A DNA stretch of 64,000 nt from a virus. Its lineage: Duplodnaviria > Heunggongvirae > Uroviricota > Caudoviricetes. Below are positions 45,939 through 46,059 of this stretch, piece by piece. A model generated the notes under the pieces. It was not told the origin of the DNA. It saw nothing but the letters and a program-made list of their open reading frames with translations, and did not search any database. Numbering within the stretch: the first letter of the stretch is position 1; each line of letters starts with the position of its first letter. The stretch lies in the IMG/VR virus record IMGVR_UViG_3300032167_002310; one strand, written 5' to 3'. A program made the position numbers and the translations under genes.

Positions 45939-46059
45939 TTGGTGGGGACTGAGGGATTCGAACCCCCAAACACGTGCTCCTCATGCAAAAGAAAGATTGC
46001 AGACATGGTCACTTCCGAGACCCGCTTATAACGCGGCTGTACCATTCGCCTAAATCCCC
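45939..46059 (-). ncRNA. over-long tRNA-like RNA (about 121 nt) with 7-bp acceptor stem, T-arm and CCA
   Basis: 5' GGGGATT ... T-arm GGGGGTTCGAATCCCTC ... AGTCCCC-A-CCA; D-arm GGCGAATGGTACAGCC; about 45 extra nt where the anticodon/variable region should be; possible CGC-GTTATAA-GCG anticodon-like hairpin (TAT). Confidence 0.35.

What the first reader, a model, noticed from the sequence alone, without database searches (positions are those of the whole stretch)
45939..46059. 121-nt tRNA-like RNA with acceptor stem, D-arm, T-arm, CCA and about 45 surplus nucleotides
GGGGATT...AGTCCCC-A-CCA acceptor pairing, D-arm GGCGAATGGTACAGCC and T-arm GGGGGTTCGAATCCCTC are all present. The region between the D-arm and T-arm is about 45 nt too long. 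A CGC-GTTATAA-GCG hairpin could be a short anticodon stem with anticodon TAT (Ile), an isoacceptor otherwise missing from the array.
Basis: seen in the sequence. Interest (0 to 1): 0.5.

Follow-up and report, generated by a model that had tools for sequence, protein, structure and literature searches.

The report
tRNA-shaped phage RNA with conserved side-arm
The 120-nt RNA is real and conserved: a complete tRNA body whose anticodon stem is interrupted by a 44-nt module that also frames about 200 other RNA cassettes, including circularly permuted tRNA genes, encoded upstream of a Ro60-like RNA-repair gene in large gut and rumen phages.

Summary
Window 46059-45940 (minus strand) encodes a 120-nt RNA with a 7-bp acceptor stem, D arm, T arm, A73 and CCA, plus 44 extra nucleotides.

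The tRNA-Ile(UAU) reading is not supported. That hairpin lies in a variable AU-rich joiner, and related phages carry this RNA alongside a normal tRNA-Ile(UAU).

At least 19 distinct homologues keep the whole insert, with covariation in four helices. No insert-free version turned up in IMG/VR.

The insert is a conserved module: a GUCU-containing stem, a fixed spacer, then C(A/U)GCAA. The same module, opened at its loop, frames 196 distinct cassettes in the fetched phage loci, 12 of them in this window. Their cargo includes ordinary tRNAs and circularly permuted tRNA-like genes. One cassette in this window is YrlA-like.

Cassettes sit upstream of, and on the same strand as, a DUF2828 protein whose model matches Ro60 structures.

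- **Best reading (0.42):** a Y-RNA-like (YrlA-like) tRNA mimic in unpermuted order, with the module as a protein handle.
- **Main rival (0.33):** the module is excised. Joining in silico gives a perfect 76-nt tRNA(GAG).

I found no description of the module or of permuted phage tRNA genes in the papers searched.

The parts
45940..46059 (-). The whole 120-nt tRNA-like RNA, from G1 at 46059 to the last A of CCA at 45940.
   Evidence: Rfam tRNA 38 bits. Own covariance model R1 scores it 132.7 bits. At least 19 distinct homologues.
46053..46059 (-). Acceptor stem 5' strand, GGGGAUU. It pairs with 45944-45950 (AGUCCCC).
   Evidence: 5 of 7 pairs change on both sides across homologues and 100% of cells are paired.
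46035..46050 (-). D arm, GGC-GAAUGGUACA-GCC, with G18G19.
   Evidence: In L216 the D-loop GG becomes GA and T-loop C56 becomes U. Read from the sequence, this looks like a compensatory change of the elbow pair.
46031..46033 (-). P1 5' strand, CGU (tRNA positions 27-29). It pairs with ACG at 45973-45975 and is the remnant of the outer anticodon stem.
   Evidence: Invariant in alignment A4. It covaries in the more distant members L243 (CCG/CGG) and L232 (CCGU/ACGG).
45987..46030 (-). The 44 surplus nucleotides: AU-rich joiner UAUAAGCG, P2 hairpin, linker AUGU, CUGCAA, and a U-rich stretch UCUUUCUUUU.
   Evidence: Kept in all homologues. Deleting exactly this stretch in silico gives a 76-nt cloverleaf that ARAGORN calls tRNA-Leu(GAG).
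46007..46022 (-). P2 hairpin, GGUCUC-GGAA-GUGACC, with a GNRA loop. It is the capped form of the terminal stem of the framed cassettes.
   Evidence: 3 of 5 pairs change on both sides. Other members have GGUAUU/AAUACC, UGUCU/AGACA or GGUCUU/AAGACC.
45997..46006 (-). Linker plus the CUGCAA motif. The spacing GAC + 3 nt + 2 nt + C(A/U)GCAA is the same as in the cassette consensus.
   Evidence: Cassette consensus from 196 distinct cassettes: C98 A89 G100 C100 A100 A100, with a fixed 2-nt linker in 170 of them.
45973..45986 (-). GC + AUGAGGA + GCACG, an anticodon-loop-like segment. U33 and G36G37 are kept, but positions 34-35 and the loop length (7-8 nt) vary between homologues.
   Evidence: Alignments. 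Loops seen: AUGAGGA, AUAGGGA, AUCAGGA, AUUAGGA, AUGUAGGA, AUAUGGGA, UUUGGGU.
45951..45967 (-). T arm, GGGGG-UUCGAAU-CCCUC.
   Evidence: 3 of 5 pairs change on both sides.
45940..45950 (-). Acceptor 3' strand AGUCCCC, discriminator A73 and encoded CCA.
   Evidence: CCA is not encoded in all homologues (ACAA, ACCU, AUCA, ACUA), so CCA addition after transcription is implied.
38620..40179 (-). Ro60-like protein gene (DUF2828 + DUF7788), 5.8 kb downstream of the RNA on the same strand. It is the candidate protein partner.
   Evidence: Pfam and phrog_850 'RNA-binding protein'. The AlphaFold model (pLDDT 65) has Ro60/TROVE structures as its nine best Foldseek hits in the PDB, E 4e-6 to 3e-4.
55597..55726 (-). 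Permuted paralogue carrying the same module in YrlA order: AAGACCGU-UA-CUGCAA ... T arm - closed acceptor (GCCA in the loop) - D arm ... GCGGUCUU-G.
   Evidence: Rfam YrlA, full model length, 30.6 bits (below the gathering score of 69), E 1e-4. 8-bp P2. Joining in silico gives a 76-nt tRNA-Gly(GCC).
47727..47849 (-). Circularly permuted tRNA-Leu(UAA)-like gene framed by the same module (AAGACACC ... GGUGUCUU).
   Evidence: Re-joined in silico, ARAGORN calls it tRNA-Leu(UAA), 90-95 nt.

Best explanation
This is a tRNA-shaped, probably non-decoding RNA of the bacterial Y-RNA (YrlA) kind, encoded in normal tRNA order rather than permuted order.

**The tRNA body.** It keeps everything needed to fold as an L and be handled as a tRNA: acceptor stem, U8, A14, G18G19, an A15-U48 pair, the T loop, A73 and CCA. 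It should therefore be cut out of the array transcript by RNase P and 3' trimming, and be given or keep CCA.

**The module.** The anticodon stem is interrupted after position 29 by a 44-nt module: an AU-rich joiner, a GUCU-containing stem (P2) capped by a GNRA loop, a fixed spacer, CUGCAA, and a U-rich stretch. This makes a three-way junction.

**The wider system.** The same module, opened at its loop so that P2 carries the RNA's ends, frames a dozen other cassettes in this phage and about 200 in related phages. All are encoded upstream of, and co-directional with, a Ro60-like protein and an RNA-repair gene set (RNA ligase, Thg1-like, RlaP-like nucleotidyltransferase, metallophosphatase, RNase T-like exonuclease, cREC protein).

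**Proposed mechanism.** The module is the sequence-specific handle for the Ro60-like protein, as the terminal stem is in Y RNAs. The tRNA-like domain is the second module that recruits tRNA-handling enzymes. The RNA would thus tether or regulate the phage's RNA quality-control and repair machinery during infection.

**Shown here:** the anatomy, its conservation and covariation, the shared module, and the genomic linkage.

**Inferred:** the Ro60-like fold (moderate-confidence model), protein binding, tRNA-type processing, and the absence of decoding.
For: - The structure is conserved, with covariation in the acceptor, T, P2 and D helices and in P1 in distant members.
- Conservation stops exactly at the tRNA ends, while the flanking sequence differs between loci.
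- The module appears in permuted, YrlA-like topology in L219, L222, L106 and at window 55597-55726. Rfam YrlA matches the tRNA-like core or the full length at about 30 bits.
- A search anchored on AAG(A/G)C, C(A/U)GCAA and a complementary 7-mer ending in UCUU or CCUU found 268 framed cassettes (196 distinct), against 9 in shuffled sequence. The G after the stem, which the search did not require, is present in 262 of 268.
- At the variable R:Y position of the stem the pairs are A-U 105, G-C 43, G.U 11 and A.C 0. This argues for RNA-level pairing on the gene strand.
- Cassettes occur in 58 of 83 DUF2828 loci but in only 2 of 80 tRNA-array loci anchored on another gene. 156 of 157 are on the gene's strand and 155 of 156 lie upstream.
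- This RNA family itself lies 1.4-9 kb upstream of the DUF2828 gene, on the same strand, in 12 of those loci.
- The DUF2828 model matches Ro60 structures.
- Precedent (PMC4201824): YrlA RNAs are tRNA mimics, mostly encoded within 4 kb of Ro60 on the same strand in bacteria and phages. They bind Rsr, and the M. smegmatis RNA is cut by RNase P and receives CCA.
- The anticodon-like loop varies in sequence and length between near-identical homologues, and no insert-free allele was found.
Against: - No binding data exist. The Ro60-like assignment rests on a pLDDT-65 model with TM scores of about 0.3, and there is no sequence-level match to Ro60.
- The YrlA 5' motif GNCGAAN0-1G is absent.
- The RNA's ends are at the acceptor stem, not in the protein-binding stem.
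- The module also frames ordinary tRNAs (Asn at 51854-51969, Gly-UCC near 56500-56605). There it must be removed, which points to a role in precursors or processing.
- Deleting the module yields flawless cloverleaves in three of three window RNAs. U33 and G36G37 are kept in the loop. A pure protein-handle model does not require either.
- The cassette/DUF2828 association compares different phage clades, so shared ancestry could inflate it.
Confidence: 0.42

Rival explanations
1. It is an intron-containing tRNA gene. The 44-nt module is excised and the exons are joined, presumably by the phage's RNA ligase and end-healing enzymes after an unknown endonuclease cuts. The product is a 76-nt class-I tRNA with anticodon stem CGUGC/GCACG and loop AUGAGGA (anticodon GAG, G37).

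Under this reading the permuted cassettes are permuted tRNA genes. They would mature through end-joining or circularisation, followed by RNase P and 3' opening of the acceptor loop, as in Cyanidioschyzon merolae.
For: - In-silico excision at 29|30 gives a 76-nt cloverleaf that ARAGORN calls tRNA-Leu(GAG). The permuted RNAs give tRNA-Gly(GCC) with the canonical loop CUGCCAA, and tRNA-Leu(UAA).
- Pairs 28-42 and 29-41 covary (L243 CCGGC/GCCGG).
- U33 and G36G37 are kept across the family.
- Other tRNAs just upstream of the Ro60-like gene carry the same kind of module inside the 5' strand of the anticodon stem. It is flanked by a partial repeat of that strand, and their anticodon loops are canonical and conserved. 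These are Leu-UAA in L245, L228 and L098, and Tyr-GUA in L241 and L238.
- Many permuted genes encode N73-CCA at the start of the acceptor loop.
- The phage encodes an RNA ligase, a metallophosphatase, a Thg1-like enzyme, a nucleotidyltransferase and a cREC protein.
- Lak megaphage tRNAs were reported to have 'enigmatic introns' (10.1101/356790).
Against: - The anticodon is not conserved among near-identical bodies (GAG, AGG, CAG, UAG, UGG), and about half the members have 8-nt loops.
- Position 32 is A.
- A normal tRNA-Leu(GAG) is already present in the window at 54164-54249.
- No insert-free allele was found in IMG/VR.
- No bulge-helix-bulge motif is visible by inspection. The module is too small for a group I or II intron and has no Rfam ribozyme or intron hit.
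- The distance from the module to the putative splice sites varies (0-15 nt), so a simple ruler-type nuclease would not work.
- The only nuclease ORF in the array is a DNA homing endonuclease of the I-Ssp6803I type.
Confidence: 0.33
2. It is a functional decoder without splicing. The anticodon helix forms from 2-3 distal and 3 proximal base pairs, and the module is tolerated as a side arm. Permuted versions would work as two-piece tRNAs after the acceptor loop is opened.
For: - Distal CG(U) and proximal (U)GC together can pair with GCACG to give a continuous 5-bp helix (seen in the sequence).
- Two-piece tmRNAs from permuted genes are a precedent (my own knowledge).
- Permuted Leu(UAA) genes keep an intact anticodon arm, with the break in the variable region, where class II tRNAs carry a long arm.
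Against: - A 44-nt branch at positions 29/30 of the anticodon stem would probably clash inside the 30S A and P sites (inference from known ribosome structure).
- The anticodon and loop length are variable.
Confidence: 0.07
3. It is a decaying pseudo-tRNA disrupted by a small mobile DNA element (MITE-like, with a target-site duplication). It has no RNA-level function.
For: - Partial direct repeats of the stem strand flank the module in Leu and Tyr tRNAs.
- A homing endonuclease gene lies in the array.
- The module has many copies.
Against: - The whole RNA, including the insert, is conserved with compensatory changes in at least 19 distinct homologues from different phages, while the flanks diverge.
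- Cassette stems covary, with G.U but no A.C pairs.
- The elbow and core tertiary positions are intact.
Confidence: 0.05

Closest known systems
YrlA / bacterial Y RNAs (Rfam RF02553; Chen et al. 2014, PMC4201824)
   Same: - A tRNA-like domain (T arm, D arm, acceptor) is joined to a second, conserved stem module.
- They are encoded near a Ro60-type protein gene on the same strand, also in phages, sometimes among tRNA genes.
- They are handled by RNase P and the CCA-adding enzyme.
- The window's own permuted paralogue (55597-55726) aligns to the YrlA model over its full length.
   Different: - Gene order is the circular permutation of YrlA: the acceptor stem is open with CCA, and the conserved stem is a capped hairpin.
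- The conserved motifs differ (GUCU stem plus CAGCAA instead of GNCGAAN0-1G).
- The partner is a DUF2828-type protein rather than a Pfam TROVE protein.
- There is no YrlA model hit for this RNA.
'Enigmatic introns' in Lak megaphage tRNAs (Devoto et al., 10.1101/356790)
   Same: These are phage tRNA genes that are too long for bacterial tRNA finders. Their inserts are highly conserved, and their nature and removal are unknown. The authors say such tRNAs may be common in large phages.
   Different: - Those were described as introns in tRNAs with assignable anticodons (Phe, Gly, Thr, Tyr), and some alleles lack the insert.
- No shared module, permuted genes or Ro60 linkage were reported there.
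- I did not compare the sequences.
Circularly permuted tRNA genes (Cyanidioschyzon merolae and prasinoviruses) and two-piece tmRNA
   Same: The family occurs in two circular permutations of one fold. The permuted copies place the 3' half, N73-CCA, a short spacer and then the 5' half in that order, as permuted tRNA and tmRNA genes do.
   Different: - Those systems use bulge-helix-bulge motifs and the eukaryal or archaeal splicing endonuclease, or (for tmRNA) stay in two pieces.
- Here the junction is a different conserved module, and the host is bacterial.
- The RNA under study is the unpermuted form.
T4 stable RNAs species 1 and 2 (rnaC, rnaD)
   Same: They are small stable RNAs of 119-139 nt with unknown function, encoded in a phage tRNA cluster. 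rnaC has a T arm and a tRNA-like 3' end.
   Different: There is no sequence or model similarity: R1 finds nothing in the T4 region. They have no P2/CAGCAA module and no full cloverleaf body.

Membership tests
tRNA (RF00005) | Acceptor stem, D arm, T arm, discriminator and CCA; score above the gathering threshold. | tested here: met
   38 bits against 29, covering model positions 1-71. The helices covary.
tRNA (RF00005) | A contiguous 5-bp anticodon stem with a 7-nt loop and an anticodon conserved among orthologues. | tested here: not met
   A 55-nt insert replaces the arm in the alignment. A canonical arm forms only after 44 nt are deleted in silico. The loop varies in sequence and length (7-8 nt) between homologues.
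   The hairpin is not conserved. A genuine tRNA-Ile(UAU) coexists with this RNA in L228-L230.
YrlA / Y RNA-like (RF02553) | A tRNA-like domain with T arm, acceptor-like stem and D arm. | tested here: met
YrlA / Y RNA-like (RF02553) | RNA termini in a long stem at the anticodon side, with the acceptor stem closed by a loop. | tested here: not met
   The ends are at the acceptor stem and the stem is capped by GGAA. Relatives L219, L222, L106 and window 55597-55726 do have the YrlA topology.
YrlA / Y RNA-like (RF02553) | The GNCGAAN0-1G motif near the 5' end (PMC4201824). | tested here: not met
   By inspection of the sequences, the closest strings are CUCGGAAG and CUCGAAAG.
YrlA / Y RNA-like (RF02553) | Encoded close to, and on the same strand as, a Ro60 orthologue. 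| tested here: met
   It lies 5.8 kb upstream of the DUF2828 gene on the same strand. Family members lie 1.4-9 kb upstream in 12 loci. The Ro60-like fold is supported by Foldseek. The distance is above the 4 kb typical of YrlA.
YrlA / Y RNA-like (RF02553) | Binding to the Ro60 or Rsr protein. | not testable with these tools
   This needs RNA immunoprecipitation or gel-shift assays with the DUF2828 protein.
YrlA / Y RNA-like (RF02553) | A covariance-model score. | tested here: not met
   No YrlA match at E up to 10 on 45850-46150.
Intron-containing tRNA (archaeal/eukaryal type) | A bulge-helix-bulge motif at the exon-intron boundaries. | tested here: not met
   By inspection of the junctions CGU|UAUAAG and CUUUU|GCAUG, there is no 3-nt bulge / 4-bp helix / 3-nt bulge arrangement. 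No formal search was run.
Intron-containing tRNA (bacterial group I type) | A group I intron core in the anticodon loop. | tested here: not met
   The insert is only 44 nt, and there is no Rfam intron or ribozyme match.
Intron-containing tRNA (any type) | The mature spliced RNA exists. | not testable with these tools
   This needs RNA sequencing or Northern blots. In silico the spliced product is a valid cloverleaf.
tmRNA | A tRNA-like domain plus an internal tag reading frame and pseudoknots. | tested here: not met
   ARAGORN finds no tmRNA. The insert is 44 nt with no reading frame.

The most novel reading that the evidence does not exclude
Large gut and rumen phages may run their own tRNA cut-and-join system. 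In this reading the GUCU-stem/CAGCAA module is a universal processing signal. It marks tRNA-array transcripts for excision and ligation by the adjacent Ro60-like and RNA-repair gene set.

Module-interrupted genes (such as this one) would then be spliced. Circularly permuted tRNA genes would be circularised and re-opened at the acceptor. That would make this protein-dependent tRNA splicing and permuted tRNA genes in a bacterial virus, which I found no report of in the papers searched.
Probability: 0.3. Interest if true: 0.9.

Novelty: new variant of a known kind. Interest (0 to 1): 0.7.

Why it matters
If the reading holds, three things follow.

- **Annotation.** Standard tRNA finders systematically miss a class of phage tRNA-like genes, both interrupted and circularly permuted. 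In this window at least three go unannotated, plus several cassettes with unknown cargo.
- **An anchor for two open puzzles.** It would tie the 'enigmatic introns' of megaphage tRNAs and the phage Y-RNA-like RNAs to one conserved, easily searchable module and to a Ro60-like/RNA-repair gene cluster.
- **A testable question.** It makes it possible to test what phage Ro60 homologues and their RNA partners do during infection. Candidates are tRNA repair against host anticodon nucleases, tRNA maturation, or decoys. The substrates and motifs are now defined.

Tried and rejected
- **Close relatives in deposited phage genomes.** blastn of the region against INPHARED found only two short tRNA matches.
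- **ARAGORN intron mode.** It gave an unconvincing tRNA-Lys(UUU) with a 36-nt intron and a long variable arm. Homologue alignment does not support it.
It is broken in L198, L245, L279 and L305 and competes with P1.
- **P3 (GCAA/UUGC).** It is invariant, so pairing is unproven. Other cassettes lack the UUGC partner.
- **Thermodynamic signal.** The minimum free energy z-score is only -0.49, which is uninformative.
- **Closest phage by ATPase identity (L001, 86%).** At the matching position it has a different odd 74-nt tRNA, not this RNA.
- **Insert-free alleles.** A junction pattern scan of IMG/VR gave 8 chance hits in coding DNA.
- **T4 rnaC and rnaD.** No similarity.
- **The array's PD-(D/E)XK ORF as an EndA-like splicing nuclease.** It matches the DNA homing endonuclease I-Ssp6803I (2OST) instead.
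- **Sequence-level link of DUF2828 to Ro60.** None was found in the PDB; only the fold search links them.
- **A regex for capped modules.** It was too permissive, giving many coding-region hits. Only hits with a T arm downstream were used.
- **Literature.** Searches for permuted or split tRNA genes in bacteriophages found nothing relevant.
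Full report
**1. What is there**

On the minus strand, 46059 to 45940, lies a 120-nt sequence:

GGGGAUU-UA-GGC(GAAUGGUACA)GCC-G-CGU-[UAUAAGCG-GGUCUC(GGAA)GUGACC-AUGU-CUGCAA-UCUUUCUUUU]-GC-AUGAGGA-GCACG-UGUUU-GGGGG(UUCGAAU)CCCUC-AGUCCCC-A-CCA

It sits inside a co-directional array of 37 ARAGORN tRNA genes at 41-57 kb. The phage is large and encodes topoisomerase II, an RNA ligase, NAD-salvage enzymes and more. It has no close relative among deposited phage genomes.

Rfam's tRNA model matches the sequence end to end at 38 bits (gathering score 29), but only by placing a 55-nt insert where the anticodon arm should be. ARAGORN with default settings does not call it. The exact surplus is 44.

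**2. It is a conserved RNA, not an accident**

Pattern scans of IMG/VR, JGI metagenomes and GTDB genomes, plus loci fetched through neighbouring proteins, gave at least 19 distinct homologues of 119-124 nt. They come from 130-200-kb phage contigs, and one contig is binned with a Bacilli genome.

Similarity begins at G1 and ends at the discriminator and CCA, while the flanks are unrelated. CCA is not always encoded.

On a 17-sequence alignment the proposed structure is 97.6% paired, and 12 of 27 pairs change on both sides. No shuffle out of 500 reaches this, and slid controls give 42-50% pairing. By helix:
- Acceptor stem: 5 of 7 pairs covary.
- T stem: 3 of 5.
- P2 hairpin: 3 of 5.
- D stem: 1 of 3.
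- The 3-bp helix P1 (CGU/ACG) is invariant in that set. It covaries in two more distant members found with my covariance model R1: CCG/CGG in L243 and CCGU/ACGG in L232.

In L216 the D-loop GG becomes GA and T-loop C56 becomes U. This looks like a compensatory change of the G19-C56 elbow pair (read from the sequence).

**3. The Ile(UAU) idea fails**

- The CGC-GUUAUAA-GCG hairpin lies in an AU-rich joiner whose length and pairing are not conserved.
- It competes with P1.
- Phage loci L228-L230 contain both this RNA and a standard tRNA-Ile(UAU) 280 nt downstream.

**4. What the surplus is**

Four relatives carry the same internal sequences in circularly permuted order: L219, L222, L106, and a paralogue in this very window at 55597-55726.

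Their order is 5'-AAGACC-NN-C(A/U)GCAA ... GGAGCACG-like - T arm - acceptor stem closed by a loop - D arm - CGU-like - AU-rich joiner - GGUCUU-G-3'. This is the topology of YrlA, the bacterial Y RNA that mimics tRNA. Rfam's YrlA model aligns the window paralogue over its full length at 30.6 bits, and the L219 core at 29.8 bits. Both are below the gathering score of 69.

So the P2 hairpin of the RNA under study is the capped version of the terminal stem of the permuted RNAs.

A scan for 'T arm, then closed acceptor hairpin, then D arm' returned 110 distinct hits in the fetched loci. Many of them are permuted tRNA-like genes carrying this frame.

A direct census of the frame, AAG(A/G)C-NNN-NN-C(A/U)GCAA ... 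NNN-G(U/C)CUU, found:
- 268 cassettes (196 distinct), against 9 in shuffled sequence.
- A G after the stem in 262 of 268, although the search did not require it.
- A fixed 2-nt linker in 170.
- At the variable R:Y position of the stem: A-U 105, G-C 43, G.U 11 and A.C 0. This pattern fits RNA-level pairing on the gene strand.

The module in the RNA under study has the same spacing: GAC + 3 nt + 2 nt + CUGCAA.

**5. Cassettes in this window**

The window holds 12 frames between 43 and 57 kb, all on the gene strand.

| Cargo | Coordinates |
|---|---|
| Ordinary tRNA-Asn(GUU) | 51854-51969 |
| Ordinary tRNA-Gly(UCC) | about 56500-56605 |
| Permuted tRNA-Leu(UAA)-like gene | 47727-47849 |
| YrlA-like RNA | 55597-55726 |
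| Permuted tRNA-like RNA without an anticodon arm | about 46720-46833 |
| Cargoes of 45-155 nt of unknown nature | several |

Many permuted genes elsewhere encode N73-CCA at the start of the acceptor loop.

**6. Genomic linkage**

5.8 kb downstream on the same strand is a 519-aa DUF2828+DUF7788 protein. PHROGs calls it an RNA-binding protein. It has no sequence match in the PDB.

Its AlphaFold model is of moderate quality (pLDDT 65, pTM 0.45). The nine best Foldseek hits in the PDB are Ro60/TROVE structures aligned over the full length: Thermus phage phiLo Ro60 plus Xenopus and human Ro60. E-values run from 4e-6 to 3e-4 and TM scores are about 0.3.

Nearby genes encode an RNA ligase, an RNase T-like exonuclease, a metallophosphatase, an RlaP-like nucleotidyltransferase, a Thg1-like enzyme and a cREC (cyclic-phosphate processing) protein.

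In 83 loci fetched through the DUF2828 protein:
- 58 contain cassettes.
- 156 of 157 cassettes are on the gene's strand.
- 155 of 156 lie upstream of the gene.

In 80 tRNA-array loci fetched through an unrelated ATPase, only 2 have any cassette. The comparison is between phage clades, so shared ancestry may contribute.

The RNA family itself scores above 70 bits with R1 in 12 of the DUF2828 loci. It is always upstream and co-directional, as close as 1.4 kb. Ordinary tRNAs score 50 bits or less.

**7. How it most likely works**

*Reading A (0.42): Y-RNA-like tRNA mimic.* This follows the one experimentally characterised precedent. YrlA RNAs are tRNA mimics encoded next to Ro60 on the same strand, in bacteria and phages. 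They bind Rsr through a conserved stem. The M. smegmatis RNA is cut by RNase P and receives CCA (PMC4201824). Here the conserved GUCU stem plus CAGCAA would be the handle for the Ro60-like protein, and the tRNA body the second module.

Three observations fit a non-decoding RNA: the variable 'anticodon' (GAG, AGG, CAG, UAG, UGG), the 8-nt loops in about half the members, and the lack of any insert-free allele in IMG/VR.

*Reading B (0.33): the module is removed.* Deleting exactly the 44 nt gives a 76-nt cloverleaf that ARAGORN calls tRNA-Leu(GAG). Joining the two permuted RNAs of the window gives a 76-nt tRNA-Gly(GCC) with the canonical loop CUGCCAA, and a 90-95-nt tRNA-Leu(UAA).

Other tRNAs just upstream of the Ro60-like gene carry a module of the same kind inside the 5' strand of the anticodon stem. 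They are Leu-UAA in L245, L228 and L098, and Tyr-GUA in L241 and L238. Their anticodon loops are canonical, and a partial repeat of the stem strand flanks the module. The frame also surrounds ordinary tRNAs, where it must be removed.

Against this reading:
- No splicing endonuclease or bulge-helix-bulge motif was found.
- The distance from the module to the putative junctions varies.
- The array's PD-(D/E)XK ORF is an I-Ssp6803I-like DNA homing endonuclease.

The two readings are not exclusive. A Ro60-like protein bound to the module could be the platform on which the repair enzymes process these RNAs.

*Minor alternatives:* decoding without splicing (0.07), and a dead gene hit by a mobile element (0.05, contradicted by the covariation).

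**8. Comparison with what is known**

The closest families are:
- YrlA / Y RNA. The architecture and linkage are the same. The permutation and the motifs differ, and there is no model hit for this RNA.
- The 'enigmatic introns' of Lak megaphage tRNAs (10.1101/356790).
- Permuted tRNA genes of a red alga and prasinoviruses, and two-piece tmRNA.
- The T4 stable RNAs species 1 and 2, which show no similarity.

Full-text searches found no report of permuted tRNA genes, or of this module, in bacteriophages.

**9. Verdict**

This is a real, conserved, structured RNA. It is not tRNA-Ile. It is a new variant of the tRNA-mimic / Y-RNA kind, or alternatively of interrupted tRNA genes. It exposes a widespread module-framed cassette system linked to a phage Ro60-like RNA-repair locus that I found no description of in the papers searched. 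Function and processing remain inferred, and RNA-end mapping and protein-binding tests would decide between the readings.

Noticed in passing
window 46128-46177 (-), within the 167-nt spacer 46060-46226 between tRNA-Gln(CUG) and the RNA under study: A mimic of the 23S rRNA GTPase-associated centre (the L11-binding region, from memory). GGACGUAGGAUUAGAAGUGUCCAUCGUUUAAAGAGUG aligns to LSU model positions 1096-1145. It is conserved in L001. The core pattern TTAGAAGNNNCCATCNTTTAAAGA occurs in 104 IMG/VR contigs, mostly large phages. In the three loci I read (L081, L132, L184) it lies directly after a tRNA. Its function is unknown.
   Followed up: partly
window 47727-47849 (-): A circularly permuted tRNA-Leu(UAA)-like gene. 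Its order is variable arm, T arm, acceptor 3' strand, ACA, acceptor 5' strand, D arm, then an intact anticodon arm. It is framed by AAGACACC ... GGUGUCUU and is invisible to ARAGORN and Rfam. Re-joined in silico, it is called tRNA-Leu(UAA).
   Followed up: partly
window 55597-55726 (-), next to the cREC_REC protein gene at 55903-56256: A YrlA-like permuted tRNA mimic (Rfam 30.6 bits, below gathering) with GCCA in the acceptor loop. Joined in silico it gives a tRNA-Gly(GCC) anticodon arm, CCGGC-CUGCCAA-GCCGG.
   Followed up: partly
window 43269-43362, 45220-45391, about 46555-46632, about 46720-46833, 47888-48038, about 48280-48371, about 51330-51421, 55201-55265 (all -): Further module-framed cassettes, each with a perfect or near-perfect 7-8-bp terminal stem. 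Their cargoes are 45-155 nt and uncharacterised. One (about 46720-46833) is a permuted tRNA-like RNA lacking an anticodon arm.
   Followed up: no
window 51854-51969 and about 56500-56605 (-): The ordinary tRNA-Asn(GUU) and tRNA-Gly(UCC) genes are enclosed by the same frame. The Asn leader, CAGCAAUCUUUUUCUUUUG, is nearly identical to CUGCAAUCUUUCUUUUG inside the RNA under study.
   Followed up: partly
window 44710-45165 (-): A free-standing PD-(D/E)XK ORF (PF11645) in the tRNA array. It matches the homing endonuclease I-Ssp6803I (2OST, E 7e-6), which from memory targets a tRNA-fMet gene.
   Followed up: partly
window 45753-45926 (-): A 57-aa arginine/lysine-rich ORF with a strong ribosome-binding site starts 13 nt after the CCA. 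It is absent at the same place in L194 and L200, where the RNA is followed directly by the sequence found after the ORF's stop codon in the window. It is probably an inserted small gene. It has no Pfam or NCBIfam match.
   Followed up: partly
window 45610-45750 (-): The spacer GUCGGGGGCGCAGUAGAAGCCUGCAAUCGCUG ... upstream of tRNA-Met is conserved in L194 and L200. It may be another structured RNA.
   Followed up: no
window 24936-40179 (-): An RNA-repair-type gene neighbourhood. It contains the Ro60-like DUF2828 gene (38620-40179), an RlaP-like gene (35132-36055), a metallophosphatase (34031-34954), a sigma-70 family factor (32902-33927), an RNase T-like exonuclease (31342-32250), an RNA ligase (29909-31342), a SIR2 gene (26327-27097) and a Thg1-like gene (24936-25865).
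   Followed up: partly
L245 8885-9019, L228 8229-8365, L098 4435-4573, L241 9282-9407, L238 6254-6380, L233 9218-9346, L289 6377-6512, L222 1167-1295: tRNA genes with 41-50-nt inserts in or next to the 5' strand of the anticodon stem. They have Leu-UAA, Tyr-GUA and other anticodons. In L098 and L245 the insert carries the stem-plus-C(A/U)GCAA module, and several inserts are flanked by a partial repeat of the stem strand. Most lie just upstream of the Ro60-like gene.
   Followed up: partly
L172 4746-4865 and 12284-12403, L136 1514-1630, L149 701-937, L086/L108, L131/L133/L150, L101/L143: Other phage tRNA-like genes of 109-130 nt with different inserts. For example, a tRNA-Gln(UUG)-like gene has an intact CUUUGAU loop followed by a 45-nt insert containing a T-loop-like hairpin. 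They are not obviously related to the module described here.
   Followed up: no
L002 13622-14256, L222 2084-2675, L061 11890-11975, L222 9273-9327: Related phage tRNA arrays contain ROOL RNAs (about 317-319 bits) and a RAGATH-27 RNA. There is also a sub-threshold HDV-like ribozyme hit.
   Followed up: no
L001 7547-7637; L188 7528-7603 and 7812-7886; L001 1284-1378: Related phages encode CUA-anticodon (amber suppressor) tRNAs, which suggests TAG recoding. L001 also has a 95-nt tRNA-Ile(UAU) call.
   Followed up: no
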